From NCBI GenBank assembly GCA_030587585.2, contig JAUQYS020000294.1:1-8390 (forward strand): 8,390 nt of DNA, read 5' to 3'. The stretch is from Candidatus Njordarchaeota archaeon. Its GTDB lineage: Archaea > Asgardarchaeota > Njordarchaeia > Njordarchaeales > Panguiarchaeaceae. The notes beneath the pieces were generated by a model, which saw nothing but the letters and a program-made list of their open reading frames with translations, did not search any database and had not been told where the DNA came from. Made by a program: the position numbers and the translations under genes. Below are positions 2,347 through 8,390 of the stretch, piece by piece (position 1 is the stretch's first letter; every line of letters begins with the position of its first letter).

Positions 2347-4599
2347 ATGGTAAAAATCAAAGGCGCCGAAGAAATAAGACAACTAATAAAGAAGTTACCA
2401 TTAGAACAAAAAAGAATATTCAGCATTGTGGCGCATATAGATCATGGAAAGAGCACAATGTGCGACTACTTACTTGCCCGTGCGGGACTTATGTCAGAAG
2501 AGCTAGCGGGAGAAAAAAGAATGACAGACTATGACGAAGAAGAACAGAAAAGAATAATAACGATATTCACAACCGTAGTTAATTTGCTTTATAAATACAA
2601 AGACAAGGAATATCTAATTCAACTTAACGATACTCCTGGGCATATATCATTCACAGGAGAGGTATCCCGAGCCATACGTGCAAGTGATGGAATAATATTA
2701 CTTGTTGACGCTGTAGAAGGCGTAATGACGCAGACTATAACAAATCTCAAACTGGCCCTAAAGGAAGGCTGCAAACCCGTATTATACATAAACAAGGTAG
2801 ATAGGCTTATCTCAGAATTGAGACTTAGCCCGCAAGAAGTTGTATCAAAAATAGACAACATAATTCGAGAAGTAAACAAACTCATAGAAAATTACGCCCC
2901 CGAGGGATACAAGAAAAAATGGAAAGTAAATTTTGCAGACGGTAGCGTGGCAGTAGGCTCAGCAAAAGATGGCTGGGGCTTTACGTTTGACATATTGAAG
3001 AAAAAGTTTCCAGACCCAAAGGAGGGGTACATAAAAATATTCAAAAAATATGAGGAAGGAGACTTAGACTGGCTAAGAGAAAACTTGCCTCTCGATGAAG
3101 CAATATTGGAGATGGTTATAAAGCATCTACCTAATCCCAAAGAAGCCCAAAAATATAAAATAGAATCAATCTGGAGAGGACGAAAAGACATAGACGCGTA
3201 TGAAGCACTAATAAATGTAGACCAAAAAGGTCCCCTAATAGGCATGATAACAAAAATCTTTGTCCACCCAAAAACATTTCAAACGGCACTCATAGGCAGG
3301 ATATGGTCAGGTGTGCTTTCCAGTGATACCGAACTATACCTACTAAGCAAAGGAACAACAGCACGCCCTCACAGATTGGGAGTAATGGAAATAACAGACA
3401 TACTAGATGTAGACAAAATACCAGCAGGAAATCTCTTCGCAATGACGGGATTCCTCGTTCCAGCAGGAGAAAGCTTTATAAGCTCCGAGACATACGAGGA
3501 ATATAAAGATCTTATCGAGACCGGAGAATTTGGCTTTGAACCAATACCCTACGCAAGCGAACCAGTAGTTTCGAGAGCAATAAGACCAAAAGACCCAAAT
3601 GAGCTAGATACACTGGCCAAAGTAGCTGAGATGTGGGTTGCGGCCGACCCAACAGCAAAGTTTTATTTGGATAGAGAATCTAACCAATACATCCTAGCGG
3701 GAATAGACCCATTGCAGCTAGAGATTCTAATAAAAAGAATAAACATGAAGGTCTCAGTAGAAGTTGATGAACCGATCATAGTATATAGAGAGAGAATAGA
3801 AAAGAAAGGAATCGAAATAACAACAAAGTCCCCTAACGCTCTTAATAGACTAACTCTCTATGTCGAACCACTAGAAGAAGGCGTAGCCGACGCCATAAGA
3901 AAAGGTATAATAAAAGAAGAACAAGAACCCAAAGCCCGAGCGAGAATACTCAGAGAAAACTTCGGATGGGAAACACACCTAGCGAAAAACATAATAGCAA
4001 TGGAAGAAACAAACGTACTAATAAACGCAACAATAGGAGTACAAAGATTCGACAGAGTGAGAGACTACATAATAGCAACATTCAAGGACTTCTGCAGAGG
4101 CGGGCCTATAGCAAAAGAACCAGTCCAAAACCTCAAAGTCGTTATAACTGACGCAATAGTACACGAAGACCCTGTCCATACACAGATGGGCCAAATATTC
4201 CCAATGACATATGCGGCGTTAGCAGTATCATTCCTAACAGGAAATCCAGCATTATACGAACCAGTTCTCAGAGTAGATATAAAAGCACCTCAAAGATTTA
4301 TGGGACCGCTAATAACACTATTATCACAACGCAGAGGCAGAATATACGAAACAACGATCGAAGGAGAAGACGTCCACATAGTAGCCCATGTACCAGTCCC
4401 AGAAACCTTAGATCTTGCAGAAAAACTCAGATCGATCTCCAGCGGAAGAGCATTCTTTGGGTATCAATTCGAAACATGGTGGAAAGTCCCAGAAAGCATG
4501 AGCGAAGACCTAATCAAACAAATAAGAAAACGCAAAAAACTAAAAGAGGAACCACCAACAGTAAAAGACTTCGAAAGATTTATTTATCAGCGCACCTGA
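2347..4599 (+). CDS. Elongation factor 2 (aEF-2/EF-G) family translational GTPase, divergent (possible aEF-2 paralog)
   Basis: The 750-aa ORF is collinear with aEF-2. It has G1 AHIDHGKST, G3 DTPGH, G4 NKVD and GSAKDGWGF, and a domain IV/V-like C-terminus ending KEEPPTVKDF (canonical P-N-PPT-x-KD). Functionally critical loops deviate and are described in the findings. Confidence 0.93.
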   Translation: MVKIKGAEEIRQLIKKLPLEQKRIFSIVAHIDHGKSTMCDYLLARAGLMSEELAGEKRMTDYDEEEQKRIITIFTTVVNLLYKYKDKEYLIQLNDTPGHISFTGEVSRAIRASDGIILLVDAVEGVMTQTITNLKLALKEGCKPVLYINKVDRLISELRLSPQEVVSKIDNIIREVNKLIENYAPEGYKKKWKVNFADGSVAVGSAKDGWGFTFDILKKKFPDPKEGYIKIFKKYEEGDLDWLRENLPLDEAILEMVIKHLPNPKEAQKYKIESIWRGRKDIDAYEALINVDQKGPLIGMITKIFVHPKTFQTALIGRIWSGVLSSDTELYLLSKGTTARPHRLGVMEITDILDVDKIPAGNLFAMTGFLVPAGESFISSETYEEYKDLIETGEFGFEPIPYASEPVVSRAIRPKDPNELDTLAKVAEMWVAADPTAKFYLDRESNQYILAGIDPLQLEILIKRINMKVSVEVDEPIIVYRERIEKKGIEITTKSPNALNRLTLYVEPLEEGVADAIRKGIIKEEQEPKARARILRENFGWETHLAKNIIAMEETNVLINATIGVQRFDRVRDYIIATFKDFCRGGPIAKEPVQNLKVVITDAIVHEDPVHTQMGQIFPMTYAALAVSFLTGNPALYEPVLRVDIKAPQRFMGPLITLLSQRRGRIYETTIEGEDVHIVAHVPVPETLDLAEKLRSISSGRAFFGYQFETWWKVPESMSEDLIKQIRKRKKLKEEPPTVKDFERFIYQRT

Positions 4600-5807: not shown

Positions 5808-5964
5808 TAGCGTGGGGGTTTCCGAGTTCGAAATGGGTTCGGGCGTGACCCGCACCCTATGGCCGTCCACTCAAAAGAGCGGACAGCACCGCCCTTTCGC
5901 CTGGGGTCCCCCACCAGACTACTCAGGCAGGCGTGGCGCGGCTTAGCTTTCGGCCCCCACACTA
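5808..5964 (-). other. Leader/trailer processing stem with BHB-like motif enclosing the permuted 5S rRNA
   Basis: Leader UAGUGUGGGGG (5964-5954) pairs with trailer CCCCCACGCUA (5818-5808), giving 11 bp with one G-U. Adjacent to it is a 4-bp helix CCGA (5953-5950) / UCGG (5825-5822), flanked by 3-nt unpaired AAG (5949-5947) and AAA (5821-5819) on opposite strands. Confidence 0.6.
5820..5947 (-). rRNA. 5S rRNA, circularly permuted gene (3' half, UUUU-capped helix I, then 5' half)
   Basis: The minus-strand RNA is GCUAAGCCGCGCCACGCCUGCCUGAGUAGUCUGGUGGGGGACCCCAGGCGAAAGGGCGGUGCUGUCCGCUCUUUUGAGUGGACGGCCAUAGGGUGCGGGUCACGCCCGAACCCAUUUCGAACUCGGAA (128 nt). All 5S hallmarks are present: GGCCAUAG loop A, helix II GGUGCGG/CCGCGCC, helix III GCCCGA/UCGG-AA-GC, loop C CCCAUUUCGAAC, GCUAAGCC, a loop-E-type AGUA/GAA motif, a helix IV hairpin, and helix I GUGGACGG/CUGUCCGC. 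Their order is permuted. Removing the 8-nt cap and rejoining the ends gives a 120-nt canonical 5S. Confidence 0.85.
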
Positions 5965-6001: not shown

Positions 6002-6009
6002 TTTAAAAA
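6002..6009 (-). promoter_or_regulatory. Putative TATA box for the 5S rRNA transcript
   Basis: The minus strand reads TTTTTAAA, about 40 nt upstream of the start of the leader stem (5964). That placement would give a transcript start roughly 10-15 nt before the stem. This call rests on sequence and position only. Confidence 0.3.
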
Positions 6010-6041: not shown

Positions 6042-6127
6042 TGCGCCGGGCGGGACTCGAACCCGCGTCACCAGCTTGGGAGGCTGGCTTTAGGAGATGT
6101 ATTATCCTACCGCTAGACCACCGGCGC
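6042..6127 (-). tRNA. tRNA-Gly(CCC) with a 15-nt intron at non-canonical position 25/26; CCA not encoded
   Basis: I folded it by hand. The acceptor is GCGCCGG/CCGGCGC, the D arm is GUCU-AGCGGUA-GGAU, and the anticodon arm is CCAGC-CUCCCAA-GCUGG (anticodon CCC). The variable region is UGAC, the T arm is GCGGG-UUCGAGU-CCCGC, and the discriminator is A. It is 86 nt as encoded and 71 nt after removal of AAUACAUCUCCUAAA. Confidence 0.9.
6089..6103 (-). other. tRNA-Gly intron between the D stem and nucleotide 26
   Basis: Fifteen extra nt (AAUACAUCUCCUAAA) sit between GGAU (22-25) and G26-CCAGC. Intron CCUA pairs with exon UAGG (20-23) as a 4-bp central helix with 3-nt bulges AUA and AAG. Cutting 2 nt into each bulge restores the canonical GGAU-G-CCAGC. 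Confidence 0.75.
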
Positions 6128-6135
6128 GCTGGAAG

Positions 6136-6208
6136 TGGGCCGGGGCGGACTCGAACCGCCGACCTTCCCGTCGTAAGCGGGACGCCATAGCCACTAGGCC
6201 ACCGGCCC
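6136..6208 (-). tRNA. tRNA-Val(UAC), intron-less; CCA not encoded
   Basis: I folded it by hand. The acceptor is GGGCCGG/CCGGCCC, the D arm is GCCU-AGUGGCUA-UGGC, and nucleotide 26 is G. The anticodon arm is UCCCG-CUUACGA-CGGGA (anticodon UAC), the variable region is AGGUC, the T arm is GGCGG-UUCGAGU-CCGCC, and the discriminator is A. It is 73 nt long. Confidence 0.9.
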
Positions 6209-6363: not shown

Positions 6364-6552
6364 ATGACGCATGGATCGTTGGATAAGGCTGGTAAAGTTA
6401 GGAGGGCTACTCTAGAAGCCTTAAGAATGCTTGGTATAACTCCGCGGGAGCATCATACTCCTTCGCCTCGAGTAGCAAAAAGGGAGGCATATTGGAAAAG
6501 ATTTATTAAGAATTATAGAATAGGACAACCACCAAAAAGAAGGCGTTTATAA
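6364..6552 (+). CDS. rps30e: Ribosomal protein eS30 (S30e)
   Basis: The 62-aa protein is MTHGSLDKAGKVRRAT...PRVAKREAYWKRF...PPKRRRL. The N-terminal HGSL-x-KAGKVR motif and the basic tail are characteristic of eS30. The ATG at 6364 is preceded by GGGGGAT, a Shine-Dalgarno-like motif. The longer track ORF from 6097 runs through the tRNA genes and is rejected. Confidence 0.8.
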   Translation: MTHGSLDKAGKVRRATLEALRMLGITPREHHTPSPRVAKREAYWKRFIKNYRIGQPPKRRRL

Positions 6553-7818: not shown

Positions 7819-7899
7819 GATATCGAATAAATAATCAAAAGTATACCTATACAAAAATTCAAAACAACTAAAAATTAGGAAATATCATTATTCGATATC
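7819..7899. repeat. 12-nt perfect inverted repeat pair flanking a 57-nt spacer upstream of the Roadblock-like gene
   Basis: GATATCGAATAA (7819-7830) is the reverse complement of TTATTCGATATC (7888-7899). Confidence 0.4.
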
Positions 7900-7937
7900 T
7901 CTATATGTAGATAACAATTAAAAAATATCATCAATTT

Positions 7938-8390
7938 TTAGGGCAATTCCCTTATCATAGAAGACAGTATCTCGATAAATCTCTCCTTCGCATCTGGAGA
8001 TACTGCTACCATAGGGTACGAAGGAAAACCCGTAAGCTCTTCTATTACCGATGCGGGCAATCTATTACCCAAGTCCTGTTTATTAGCTATTAACGTAAAC
8101 CTAGAATACGGCGTTATTTTCATCAAGTATGGAAGAATTTCTTTTTGCAATCTTTCAACGTCTTCTCTAGATGAATCCGTGACAAGTACTACAAAGTCAG
8201 ATCCTTCCGTTGTCAGCATCCAAGTTCGCCAATATTCGGGCTGTCCCGCAACAGTGAACAACGTGACTTTAAATGGTTCTATTCCCTCAATTGCGAGCTC
8301 CTCAACATCTGCAAGAATAGTAGGAATATGTTTCGTCACGGTTTCACCTTTAGCAACAAGCTTTACAATAGTCGTCTTTCCGACACCGCC
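7938..8390 (-). CDS. MglA-family Ras-like small GTPase; 5' end lies outside the window
   Basis: The frame is open to the window edge and begins with the P-loop GGVGKTT upstream of the track's GTG start. G3 is TVAGQ, with Thr in place of the usual Asp as in Myxococcus MglA (TVPGQ). G4 is NKQD and G5-like is AVSP. The overall match to MglA includes VTLFTVAGQPEYW versus FHLYTVPGQVFY, and FVVLVTDSS versus GVVFVADSQ. Confidence 0.8.
   Translation of the reverse strand, partial: GGVGKTTIVKLVAKGETVTKHIPTILADVEELAIEGIEPFKVTLFTVAGQPEYWRTWMLTTEGSDFVVLVTDSSREDVERLQKEILPYLMKITPYSRFTLIANKQDLGNRLPASVIEELTGFPSYPMVAVSPDAKERFIEILSSMIRELP

What the first reader, a model, noticed from the sequence alone, without database searches (positions are those of the whole stretch)
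5808..5964. Leader-trailer stem and BHB-like motif predict endonuclease/ligase circularisation that restores the 5S junction
Leader UAGUGUGGGGG (5964-5954) and trailer CCCCCACGCUA (5818-5808) form an uninterrupted 11-bp helix. Next to it, leader CCGA (5953-5950) can pair with UCGG (5825-5822), the 3' strand of 5S helix III, to form a 4-bp helix. Each strand then carries three unpaired nt 3' of that helix: AAG (5949-5947) and AAA (5821-5819), on opposite strands. This is the helix-bulge(3)-helix(4)-bulge(3) geometry recognised by the archaeal tRNA splicing endonuclease. Cleavage 2 nt into each bulge, as I recall for canonical introns, gives ...UCGGAA-3' and 5'-GCUAAGCC.... Ligation of these ends, by an RtcB-type ligase, reconstitutes the canonical helix III/loop B junction. 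The leader CCGAA copies the genuine helix III strand (GCCCGAAC), so it looks like a decoy that presents the site to the enzyme. The third (inner) helix is not evident, so the motif is relaxed, as at non-canonical introns in Thermoproteota. The neighbouring tRNA-Gly carries such a non-canonical intron, so the required relaxed-specificity enzyme is presumably present.
Basis: partly seen in the sequence, partly recalled or inferred. Interest (0 to 1): 0.88.

Follow-up and report, generated by a model that had tools for sequence, protein, structure and literature searches.

The report
Rearranged 5S rRNA gene, likely circularised
This archaeon (labelled Candidatus Njordarchaeota) and at least 23 related sequences encode 5S ribosomal RNA with its two halves in swapped order, flanked by a conserved folding signal of the kind cut by the tRNA-splicing enzyme, so the working 5S RNA is most likely a closed circle, which I found no report of for 5S rRNA.

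Summary
Window 5947-5820 (minus strand) is a circularly permuted 5S rRNA gene. The 3' half comes first, helix I is capped by a UUUU loop, and the 5' half follows. Rfam sees only two sub-threshold half-matches.

Leader 5964-5954 and trailer 5818-5808 form an 11-bp helix. Next to it lies a 4-bp helix (CCGA/UCGG) with a 3-nt unpaired stretch 3' of each strand, as in a bulge-helix-bulge (BHB) motif. There is no inner helix.

Cutting 2 nt into each stretch and joining the ends gives CGGAA|GCUAAGCC, the canonical 5S junction. The same cutting rule reproduces the exact boundaries of the 15-nt intron in the adjacent tRNA-Gly.

Pattern scans that did not specify the stem or the leader motif found the same architecture in 32 loci (24 distinct sequences, 19 different stem sequences). 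All 14 stem pairs show compensatory changes.

A separate lineage has a normal-order 5S gene with a BHB-type insert within 1 nt of this site.

No RNA data exist, so cleavage, ligation and circularity are inferred. I found no prior report of a permuted 5S gene in archaea.

The parts
6002..6009 (-). TATA-box-like element TTTTTAAA about 40 nt upstream of the leader helix. It suggests the pre-5S RNA has its own promoter.
   Evidence: Read. Comparable A/T boxes lie 45-60 nt upstream of the CCGR element in most related loci. This is inferred from the archaeal promoter consensus, not tested.
5954..5964 (-). Leader strand of the outer helix (H1a), UAGUGUGGGGG. Two G.U pairs extend it to 5966.
   Evidence: Covariation in alignment columns 1-14 paired with 154-167.
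5950..5953 (-). Leader CCGA, one strand of the central 4-bp helix (H2a). It pairs with UCGG 5825-5822 in place of the genuine helix III strand at 5842-5839.
   Evidence: In the minimum-energy fold. The element is CCGR or CUGG in all 24 distinct relatives.
5947..5949 (-). 5' unpaired triplet AAG. The predicted cut is between A5948 and G5947, making G5947 the first mature nucleotide.
   Evidence: A[A/G]G in all sequences. The cut position is inferred from the BHB rule calibrated on the tRNA-Gly intron.
5820..5947 (-). Mature permuted 5S rRNA, 128 nt. The order is loop B/helix II 3' strand, helices V and IV, helix I 3' strand, cap loop, helix I 5' strand, helix II 5' strand, helix III/loop C.
   Evidence: Rfam half-matches. 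Canonical helices are 96.1% paired and 25 of 39 pairs carry double changes. Collinearity after un-permuting is shown.
5877..5947 (-). The 3' half of canonical 5S (GCUAAGCC ... GCUGUCCGCUC), encoded first.
   Evidence: Aligns to Rfam model positions of about 52-120.
5873..5876 (-). UUUU loop capping helix I (GAGUGGACGGC 5872-5862 paired with GCUGUCCGCUC 5887-5877). It joins what are the free 3' and 5' ends in an ordinary 5S rRNA.
   Evidence: In relatives the cap is often a stable tetraloop: UUCG in 5 distinct sequences, GUAA and GCAA once each.
5820..5872 (-). The 5' half of canonical 5S (helix I 5' strand, CCAUAG, helix II, helix III/loop C, ending ...CUCGGAA), encoded second.
   Evidence: Aligns to Rfam model positions 1 to about 51.
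5822..5825 (-). UCGG. In the precursor it is the second strand of the central 4-bp helix (H2b). In the mature RNA it is the 3' strand of helix III, pairing with CCGA 5842-5839.
5819..5821 (-). 3' bulge AAA between the central and outer helices. The predicted cut is between A5820 and A5819, making A5820 the last mature nucleotide.
   Evidence: The bulge is AAA in 23 of 24 distinct sequences and AAU in one. The search pattern fixed the first two A and excluded only G at the third position.
5808..5818 (-). Trailer strand of the outer helix (H1b), CCCCCACGCUA. Two G.U pairs extend it to 5806. T-rich sequence follows.
   Evidence: T-runs follow the stem in several relatives.
6042..6127 (-). tRNA-Gly(CCC) with a 15-nt intron (6103-6089) between positions 25 and 26. 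A 4-bp helix UAGG/CCUA has cuts 2 nt 3' of each strand. This is a relaxed bulge-helix-loop type.
   Evidence: Rfam alignment with a 17-nt insertion. The intron-less orthologue in L011 fixes the boundaries, and ARAGORN calls tRNA-Gly genes of intron-less length in L006 and L015. Fold. ARAGORN's call of tRNA-Val for the window gene is wrong.
6136..6208 (-). tRNA-Val(TAC), the first gene of the co-oriented tRNA-Val / tRNA-Gly / 5S cluster.
   Evidence: The same three-gene synteny is in L004, L005 and L011.

Best explanation
Window 5966-5806 (minus strand) is a functional, circularly permuted 5S rRNA gene.

The transcript starts a few nucleotides upstream of the leader. It carries the 3' half of 5S, then a 4-nt loop closing helix I, then the 5' half.

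The leader and trailer pair over 11-13 bp. The leader CCGA temporarily replaces the genuine 5' strand of helix III and pairs with UCGG. This builds a relaxed bulge-helix-bulge motif: outer helix, 3-nt bulge AAA, 4-bp helix, then 3 unpaired nt AAG with no inner helix.

The archaeal tRNA-splicing endonuclease (EndA) cuts 2 nt into each unpaired triplet, after A5948 and after A5820. An RtcB-type ligase joins the 2',3'-cyclic phosphate end at A5820 to the 5'-OH at G5947. That restores the canonical ...CUCGGAA-GCUAAGCC... junction.

Because helix I is already closed by a loop, the product is a 128-nt covalently closed circular 5S rRNA. It refolds with the genuine helix III and enters the large ribosomal subunit.

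Shown here: the permuted gene order, the structures, their conservation and covariation, and the exact fit of the predicted junction.

Inferred: transcription start, cleavage by EndA, ligation, and persistence of the circle.
For: - Rfam matches 5S only as two swapped halves.
- All canonical 5S helices are 96.1% paired across 14 sequences, and 25 of 39 pairs carry double changes. No shuffle of 500 reaches this, and slid controls give 33-48%.
- Leader-trailer helix: all 14 pairs carry compensatory changes, covariation score 0.736 against 0.214 in shuffles, 0 of 500. RNAalifold recovers this helix unaided.
- The minimum-energy fold of the window precursor contains outer helix, AAA bulge and CCGA/UCGG.
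- Scans whose pattern specified neither the stem nor the leader motif returned 11 of 11 genome loci and 12 of 18 metagenome loci with the full architecture.
- Synteny-based fetches added L004, L005, L017, L019, L020 and L022.
- In total there are 32 loci, 24 distinct sequences and 19 distinct stem sequences.
- The fourth pair of the 4-bp helix switches A-U to G-C together with the 5S sequence.
- Cutting rule calibrated in the same locus: the tRNA-Gly intron boundaries, fixed by the intron-less orthologue in L011, lie exactly 2 nt 3' of each strand of a 4-bp helix.
- Five loci from another lineage have a normal-order 5S gene with a BHB-type insert within 1 nt of the same junction. Removing it by the same rule restores CGGAAGUUAAGC.
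- Helix-I caps are often UUCG or GNRA tetraloops. That argues the cap is kept in the final RNA.
- Precedent: the permuted SRP RNA of Thermoproteus is cut at a leader-trailer BHB by EndA and is circular when mature (PMC4731332).
- The four Asgard genomes surveyed in 2018 have the (alpha-beta)2 EndA with the L1 loop, the enzyme type that cuts relaxed motifs (PMC5829648).
Against: - There is no RNA evidence of any kind: no mapped ends and no junction reads.
- The inner helix of the motif is missing, so the 5' cut site lies in an open junction rather than a closed bulge.
- In 10 of 24 distinct sequences the fourth pair of the 4-bp helix is a purine.A mismatch.
- RNAalifold prefers other local pairings to the 4-bp helix.
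- One assembly of the same population (L001) shows a different 5S 5' half fused at loop C. A second 5S gene or a variant arrangement therefore cannot be excluded.
- A nicked, unligated permuted 5S might fold and function too.
Confidence: 0.7

Rival explanations
1. The permuted gene gives a permuted linear product. The leader-trailer structure is cut (by EndA or another nuclease) but the ends are not ligated. The ribosome then carries a 5S RNA with helix I capped and a nick at the helix III/loop B junction, as in brown-algal mitochondria where the final 5S stays permuted.
For: Helix III/loop C is a self-contained hairpin. The new 5' end is held by the conserved pairs at columns 21-22 with 128-129, so a nicked molecule could still fold. 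Brown-algal mitochondrial 5S is permuted in the final product (PMC4267664). No junction reads are available.
Against: The motif places both cuts so that the ends reconstitute the canonical junction to the nucleotide in all 24 distinct sequences. That precision is not needed for a nicked molecule. Known EndA products with neighbouring ends are ligated: tRNA exons, intron circles, pre-16S/23S circles and Thermoproteus SRP RNA.
Confidence: 0.17
2. The circle is only an intermediate. After ligation, the helix-I cap loop is opened by another nuclease to give a conventional linear 5S with normal ends, as happens for permuted tRNA genes.
For: Permuted tRNA transcripts are circularised and then re-linearised to restore normal ends (summarised in PMC7758197).
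Against: The cap is only 3-5 nt and is not conserved in sequence. It is repeatedly a hyper-stable UUCG or GNRA tetraloop, the opposite of what a processing site would look like. No second BHB or other conserved signal sits there. tRNA ends are made by RNase P and RNase Z, which have no equivalent for 5S.
Confidence: 0.08
3. The locus is a non-functional relic or an assembly artefact, for example a collapsed tandem 5S repeat, and the real 5S gene lies elsewhere in the genome.
For: L001, another assembly of the same population, carries a different 5S 5' half joined at loop C. That could stem from a second 5S gene. Whole genomes could not be scanned.
Against: The same arrangement occurs in four independent assemblies of this species (window, L002, L003, L030) and in 23 other distinct sequences. 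Compensatory changes occur in every helix, including the cap-closed helix I and the leader-trailer stem. A relic would decay, not covary. No contiguous normal-order junction of this clade exists in the JGI metagenome contigs (0 hits).
Confidence: 0.03

Closest known systems
Permuted, circular SRP RNA of Thermoproteus tenax / T. uzoniensis (Plagens et al. 2015, PMC4731332)
   Same: A single-copy structural RNA gene has its halves swapped. The leader and trailer fold into a BHB at the new termini. The motif is cut by the tRNA-splicing endonuclease and the ends are presumably joined by RtcB. The mature RNA is a stable circle. The authors proposed an origin from an ancestral BHB intron, which matches the 5S insert seen here in another lineage.
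   Different: The RNA is different (5S rRNA, a ribosome component) and so is the lineage (Njordarchaeota-labelled and related MAGs rather than Thermoproteales). The arrangement is conserved across at least 24 distinct sequences rather than two species. Here part of the mature RNA (helix III 3' strand) is borrowed for the central helix. Nothing has been tested experimentally.
Circularly permuted tRNA genes (Cyanidioschyzon merolae and other algae; one archaeon), as summarised in PMC7758197 and PMC5829648
   Same: The 3' half is encoded upstream of the 5' half in one transcript. A BHB-type motif forms from leader and trailer, and a circular RNA forms by endonuclease plus ligase.
   Different: tRNA circles are re-opened at the acceptor-stem linker to give normal ends. 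Here the helix-I cap is a 3-5 nt stable loop with no evident processing signal, so the circle is probably final.
BHB-dependent circular pre-16S/pre-23S rRNA, circular 23S in ribosomes (PMC12918454), and circularly permuted 23S of Pyrococcus furiosus (PMC7758197)
   Same: A leader-trailer processing stem carries a BHB, EndA cuts it, and the rRNA is circularised. Circular rRNA can reside in ribosomes.
   Different: Those genes are in normal order. The literature states that this pathway applies to 16S and 23S 'but not 5S' (PMC12918454). Here circularisation is needed to restore continuity inside the molecule, not just to join its natural ends.
Permuted mitochondrial 5S rRNA of brown algae (Valach et al. 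2014, PMC4267664)
   Same: 5S rRNA with helix I replaced or closed by a hairpin and new termini elsewhere. It is missed by standard 5S models.
   Different: The break lies at the junction of two domains rather than at helix III/loop B. There is no BHB and no ligation, the final product stays permuted, and the setting is an organelle.
Low-level circular 5S species in Sulfolobus solfataricus and Halobacterium salinarum (Danan et al. 2012, PMC3326292)
   Same: Evidence that 5S RNA can be circular in archaeal cells.
   Different: Those are minor end-to-end circles of a normal gene product. They were not validated by RT-PCR and may be degradation intermediates. No permuted gene and no BHB are involved.

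Membership tests
5S rRNA (Rfam RF00001) | Score at or above the curated gathering threshold (38 bits) for the covariance model | tested here: not met
   No hit at gathering in the window or in 13 related loci. There are two half-hits of 23.4 and 17.7 bits. The failure is explained by the swapped order, not by divergence.
5S rRNA (Rfam RF00001) | Helices I-V in a three-way junction, with the conserved loop C and loop E sequence motifs | tested here: met
   All helices are 96.1% paired with 25 of 39 covarying pairs. CCCAUUUCGAACUCGGAAG|CUAAGCC and GAGUAG...GCGAAAG are present. The un-permuted sequence aligns collinearly with ordinary 5S genes.
Bulge-helix-bulge (BHB) substrate of archaeal splicing endonuclease | Central helix of exactly 4 bp | tested here: met
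   In the window CCGA/UCGG is 4 Watson-Crick pairs and is in the minimum-energy fold. Across relatives, three pairs are almost invariant. The fourth is A-U or G-C in 14 of 24 distinct sequences and a purine.A mismatch in 10 of 24.
Bulge-helix-bulge (BHB) substrate of archaeal splicing endonuclease | At least one 3-nt bulge flanking the central helix, with the two unpaired triplets on opposite strands, each 3' of its helix strand | tested here: met
   AAA 5821-5819 is a true bulge between the two helices. AAG 5949-5947 is unpaired 3' of CCGA. The definition is taken from PMC4731332.
Bulge-helix-bulge (BHB) substrate of archaeal splicing endonuclease | Both flanking helices (h and h') present, i.e. 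the strict hBHBh' form | tested here: not met
   The outer helix is present (11-13 bp, covarying). No inner helix can be drawn next to AAG. The motif is therefore the relaxed hBH / bulge-helix-loop type described in PMC5829648.
Bulge-helix-bulge (BHB) substrate of archaeal splicing endonuclease | Actual cleavage by EndA at the two sites | not testable with these tools
   This needs an enzyme assay or RNA end mapping. Indirect support: the same rule gives the exact boundaries of the neighbouring tRNA-Gly intron.
Bulge-helix-bulge (BHB) substrate of archaeal splicing endonuclease | Host encodes a broad-specificity EndA ((alpha-beta)2 with L1 loop, or epsilon2) and RtcB | not tested
   These genes are not in the window or the fetched loci. 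The literature reports (alpha-beta)2 with the L1 loop in the four Asgard genomes surveyed in 2018 (PMC5829648). Njordarchaeota were not among them.
Permuted non-coding RNA genes rescued by the tRNA-splicing machinery (permuted tRNA, Thermoproteus SRP RNA) | 3' part encoded upstream of 5' part on one strand in one unit, with the original termini joined by a short linker | tested here: met
   The cap loop is 3-5 nt. A single TATA-like box lies upstream, with no internal one.
Permuted non-coding RNA genes rescued by the tRNA-splicing machinery (permuted tRNA, Thermoproteus SRP RNA) | Leader and trailer form the BHB, and the predicted ligation restores the canonical sequence | tested here: met
   CGGAA|G(C/U)UAAG(C/U)(C/U) in all 24 distinct sequences equals the Rfam consensus CggAAguUAAGc.
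Permuted non-coding RNA genes rescued by the tRNA-splicing machinery (permuted tRNA, Thermoproteus SRP RNA) | Junction-spanning RNA reads or a circular RNA demonstrated | not testable with these tools
   No transcriptome data are accessible. The junction 45-mer is absent from JGI metagenome DNA contigs, as expected if it exists only in RNA.

The most novel reading that the evidence does not exclude
A whole archaeal clade builds its ribosomes with a covalently circular 5S rRNA. The clade comprises MAGs labelled Candidatus Njordarchaeota plus at least two related, unnamed lineages. The circle is produced from a permuted gene by the tRNA-splicing endonuclease and ligase. The permutation arose from a BHB intron at the helix III/loop B junction, a type of 5S intron still present in another lineage (L028 group). 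One population may even carry a split 5S gene whose halves are joined in trans (L001).
Probability: 0.55. Interest if true: 0.88.

Novelty: new variant of a known kind. Interest (0 to 1): 0.82.

Why it matters
5S rRNA is universal, and recent literature treats it as the one archaeal rRNA not matured through BHB cleavage and circularisation (PMC12918454).

A permuted 5S gene whose product must be re-joined by the tRNA-splicing machinery would extend 'gene scrambling rescued by EndA/RtcB' from tRNA and SRP RNA to a core ribosomal RNA. It would also predict a ribosome with a circular 5S rRNA.

The lineage is an Asgard-affiliated group that features in debates on eukaryote origins, so its RNA-processing repertoire is of wider interest.

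There is a practical consequence. Standard tools (Rfam at its gathering score, as tested here) do not call these genes. MAGs of this clade will therefore be scored as lacking 5S rRNA, which is one of the criteria for 'high-quality' draft genomes.

A BHB-type insert at the same site in another lineage gives a testable route (intron, then permutation, then possibly split) for how such genes arise.

Tried and rejected
(1) Lineage of the divergent loci L007 and L014. Two protein searches and an exact-cluster look-up gave no organism names. For L007, the nearest named relatives of the neighbouring DHH phosphoesterase are Asgard MAGs at only 33-34% identity, which is suggestive and not decisive.

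(2) Junction search. A 45-nt sequence spanning the predicted ligated junction of the window clade has 0 matches in JGI metagenome contigs. So I found no normal-order gene of this clade and no assembled transcript there.

(3) RNAalifold on 14 precursors recovers the outer helix and 5S helices I, II, IV and V. It does not recover the 4-bp central helix. It draws a local UUCCG/CGGAA hairpin from invariant bases instead. I kept the central helix on the strength of the conserved leader CCGR element and the partial covariation of its fourth pair.

(4) I looked for an inner (h') helix next to AAG and found none. The only candidates are the two loop-B pairs (columns 21-22 with 128-129). Those would shorten the bulge to 2 nt and are separated from the central helix by 17 nt on the other strand.

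(5) Assembly artefact or tandem-repeat collapse was rejected, because 32 independent loci show compensatory changes.

(6) The leader as a decayed relic of the old junction (CGGAAG) was considered. A relic would not stay CCGR in every lineage, nor track the 5S base opposite it.

(7) ARAGORN's call of the second tRNA as tRNA-Val was rejected in favour of tRNA-Gly(CCC) with an intron.

(8) The sigma-70 promoter/terminator scanner was not used, because the organism is an archaeon.
Full report
**1. What is in the window**

On the minus strand the RNA reads:
...UGG-UAGUGUGGGGG-CCGA-AAG-CUAAGCCGCGCC...GCUGUCCGCUC-UUUU-GAGUGGACGGCCAUAGGGUGCGGG...CCCGAACCCAUUUCGAAC-UCGG-AAA-CCCCCACGCUA-UUC...

Rfam reports no 5S rRNA at its gathering score. 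With a permissive threshold it finds two adjacent sub-threshold matches to RF00001.
- 5975-5878 aligns well only to the model's 3' half (UAAGC through helices V/IV to the helix I 3' strand).
- 5870-5820 aligns to its 5' half (helix I 5' strand, CCAUAG, helix II, helix III/loop C).

The gene is therefore a circular permutation of 5S rRNA. Helix I (11 bp) is closed by UUUU, and the new ends lie at the helix III/loop B junction. After re-ordering the halves, the sequence aligns end to end with ordinary 5S genes, scoring 59 and 69 against 22 and 26 in gene order.

**2. The leader-trailer structure**

- Leader 5964-5954 pairs with trailer 5818-5808 over 11 bp (one U.G), extendable by two G.U pairs.
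- CCGA 5953-5950 can pair with UCGG 5825-5822.
- AAA 5821-5819 then bulges between the two helices.
- AAG 5949-5947 is unpaired 3' of CCGA.

RNAfold puts all of this in the minimum-energy structure (-86.8 kcal/mol, z = -3.9).

I checked the topology against the logic of a canonical tRNA intron. There, each 3-nt bulge lies 3' of its strand of the 4-bp helix and is cut after its second nucleotide. This rests on established knowledge of the archaeal BHB motif. [quoted passage not shown] The window matches that topology.

There is no inner helix. The motif is the relaxed hBH / bulge-helix-loop kind described in PMC5829648.

Cutting after A5948 and A5820 and joining the ends gives ...ACUCGGAA-GCUAAGCC.... 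This equals the Rfam consensus ...ACuCggAAguUAAGc... with no base gained or lost.

**3. An internal calibration of the cutting rule**

The next gene upstream is tRNA-Gly(CCC), 6127-6042, and it carries a 15-nt insertion. ARAGORN miscalls this gene.

A relative (L011) has the same gene without the insertion. ARAGORN also calls tRNA-Gly genes of intron-less length in L006 and L015. The L011 sequence fixes the intron at 6103-6089, between tRNA positions 25 and 26.

The intron folds into a 4-bp helix UAGG/CCUA. Both boundaries lie exactly 2 nt 3' of each helix strand (AU|A and AA|G). The 5' site sits in a hairpin loop, so this is the same relaxed geometry as in the 5S precursor.

This organism must therefore process such sites if this tRNA gene is to yield a functional tRNA. 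That conclusion is an inference.

**4. Relatives**

The neighbouring protein is named by NCBI as coming from a 'Candidatus Njordarchaeota archaeon' MAG.

Two contigs whose neighbour protein is only 61-62% identical (L004, L005) keep the tRNA-Val / tRNA-Gly / permuted-5S order. They have leader AAUAAUGUGGGGG-CCGA-AAG and trailer UCGG-AAA-CCCCCACAUUAUU. Compared with the window, that is a G-C to A-U exchange and a U.G to U-A exchange in the stem.

I then scanned one genome per GTDB species. The pattern specified only 5S-internal motifs in permuted order, plus 'not G' after CGGAA.
- It returned 11 loci, all from archaeal MAGs.
- Three are labelled Njordarchaeota. The others are labelled Promethearchaeati, 'Crenarchaeota', 'Nitrososphaerota' or simply archaeon.
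- All 11 have complementary leader and trailer segments directly abutting CCGR-A(A/G)G and NCGG-AAA.

The same pattern on JGI metagenomes gave 18 loci, 12 of them of this type. Synteny look-ups added L017/L019, L020 and L022.

In total there are 32 loci, 24 distinct sequences and 19 different 10-nt stem sequences. Contiguous stems run 4-16 bp, mostly 10-15 bp. In the L007/L017/L020 group the inner stem is only 4-5 bp, but a second outer helix follows after a trailer hairpin.

**5. Covariation**

On a 14-sequence alignment (A1):

| Structure | Cells paired | Shuffled | Slid controls | Pairs with double changes |
|---|---|---|---|---|
| Outer helix + 4-bp helix | 88.9% | 62% (0/500 reach it) | 27-46% | 15 of 18 (all 14 outer-helix pairs) |
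| Mature 5S fold, including loop-closed helix I and genuine helix III | 96.1% | 75% (0/500 reach it) | 33-48% | 25 of 39 |

The covariation score for the outer and 4-bp helices is 0.736 against 0.214 in shuffles.

The 4-bp helix has three near-invariant pairs. Its fourth pair is A-U (7), G-C (2) or G.A (5) in A1. One metagenome sequence (L024) has A.A. Across the 24 distinct sequences this pair is standard in 14 and a purine.A mismatch in 10.

So the leader base follows the 5S base when that base is U or C, but stays a purine when it is A. This weakens the claim of a strict 4-bp helix in that subgroup without removing it. RNAalifold alone does not choose this helix.

**6. Fate of the product**

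The helix-I cap is 3-5 nt and unconserved in sequence. It is often a hyper-stable tetraloop: UUCG in five distinct sequences, GUAA and GCAA once each.

That pattern fits a structural cap that stays in the mature RNA. It does not fit a processing site. With the cap retained and the BHB ends ligated, the product is a 128-nt circle.

EndA products with adjacent ends are ligated in every documented archaeal case: tRNA exons, intron circles, pre-16S/23S and Thermoproteus SRP RNA. I therefore rate the outcomes as follows:
- circle: about 0.7
- nicked linear permuted 5S: about 0.17
- re-opening at the cap: about 0.08
- relic or artefact: about 0.03

**7. Comparison with what is known**

The closest system is the permuted, circular SRP RNA of Thermoproteus (PMC4731332). 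Permuted tRNA genes and BHB-dependent circular pre-16S/23S rRNAs are related.

Full-text searches for 'permuted 5S' (with and without 'archaea'), 'circular 5S', '5S rRNA intron', and Njordarchaeales plus 'permuted' found only the organellar study of Valach et al. 2014. There the product stays permuted, with no BHB.

A 2026 paper states that circularisation applies to archaeal 16S and 23S 'but not 5S rRNAs'. Danan et al. 2012 saw minor, unvalidated end-to-end circles of normal 5S.

Within the limits of the open-access library, a permuted 5S gene with a BHB in archaea appears undescribed. The mechanism itself is a known kind, so I rate this as a new variant of a known kind.

**8. Loose ends**

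(a) Five metagenome loci (the L028 group) are normal-order 5S genes. L028 and L035 were scanned with Rfam and scored 47.9 and 47.7 bits. These loci carry a 22- or 32-nt insert at the same junction:
...CACG-GA|A-hairpin-CGUG-AA|A-GUUAAGC...
Removing it by the same rule restores CGGAAGUUAAGC. This looks like a BHB intron in 5S rRNA. It supports the view that EndA can act at this site, and it fits the intron-first origin proposed for the permuted SRP RNA.

(b) L001 is another assembly of the window's population. It matches the window up to loop C, then switches to a different 5S 5' half preceded by a TATA-like box. This is either a chimera through a second 5S gene or a real 5'-half-plus-trailer (split) gene. 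I could not resolve it.

(c) L022 has a 30-nt copy of the 5S end plus trailer about 3.1 kb downstream of its permuted 5S. It resembles an attachment-site repeat or a relic of rearrangement.

(d) The endA and rtcB genes of this organism were not examined.

Noticed in passing
L028 1226-1362(-), L036 ~7837-7958(+), L035 5236-5381(-), L037, L040 (JGI metagenome contigs): These are normal-order 5S rRNA genes; L028 and L035 were scanned and scored 47.9 and 47.7 bits with Rfam. They carry a 22- or 32-nt insert within 1 nt of the window's permutation break: CACG-GA|A-(hairpin)-CGUG-AA|A-GUUAAGC. This is a 4-bp helix with 3-nt bulges and an inner hairpin. Removing the insert restores the canonical junction, and the hairpin differs between the two sequence types while staying paired. 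It looks like a BHB intron in 5S rRNA, for which a literature search found nothing.
   Followed up: partly
L001 13503-13560(-), same population as the window (ENA ERZ2433807 NODE_290): This contig is identical to the window from the 276-aa gene through the trailer and the 5S loop C. Upstream it carries a different 5S 5' half (GUUGGACGGUCAAAGCGACGUGGUCACA) preceded by TTTATAAAT, and an aIF2-gamma-like gene start. It has no 3' half and no leader. It is either an assembly chimera through a second 5S gene or a real 5'-half-plus-BHB-trailer (split 5S) gene.
   Followed up: partly
L022 ~6110-6140(+) versus its permuted 5S at ~2830-2990(+): A 30-nt partial copy of the 5S end plus trailer (CAUUCCGAACCCGGAAACAGGAUCCCC) lies about 3.1 kb downstream of the gene. 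The two copies bracket a 681-aa ORF with no Pfam match. This resembles the direct repeats left by an integrated element or a rearrangement relic.
   Followed up: no
window 6089-6103(-) within tRNA-Gly 6042-6127; also L004 and L005: A 15-nt intron lies at tRNA position 25/26 (D-arm) of tRNA-Gly(CCC). It is present in the window species and in L004/L005 but absent from the orthologue in L011 (and, by gene length, L006 and L015). This indicates recent gain or loss. ARAGORN mislabels the gene as tRNA-Val or tRNA-Leu.
   Followed up: yes
window and loci L004-L016: Rfam at its gathering thresholds calls no 5S rRNA in any of these loci. MAGs of this clade will therefore be annotated as lacking 5S rRNA.
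   Followed up: yes
L007 4609-4800(+), L017 3354-3521(-), L020 3402-3569(-): In this divergent subgroup the stem next to the bulge is only 4-5 bp (GGGUG/CACCC, GGCG/CGCC). It is followed in the trailer by a conserved hairpin (GGUUGCGACC-like) and, in L007, by a second leader-trailer helix (GAGACGCGUG/CACGCGUCUC). One member has AAU instead of AAA as the 3' bulge.
   Followed up: partly
window 7938-8339(-) and 6364-6552(+) (by homology with L002 gene calls): An Arf/Ras-family small GTPase and a eukaryote-type ribosomal protein eS30 (faint Pfam hit) flank the RNA cluster. This fits the Asgard label of the MAG.
   Followed up: no
L028 1448-1562(-), L035 5469-5584(-): The tRNA immediately upstream of each insert-bearing 5S gene has a 46-47-nt insertion in the anticodon-loop region. 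That lineage too is rich in introns within RNA genes.
   Followed up: no
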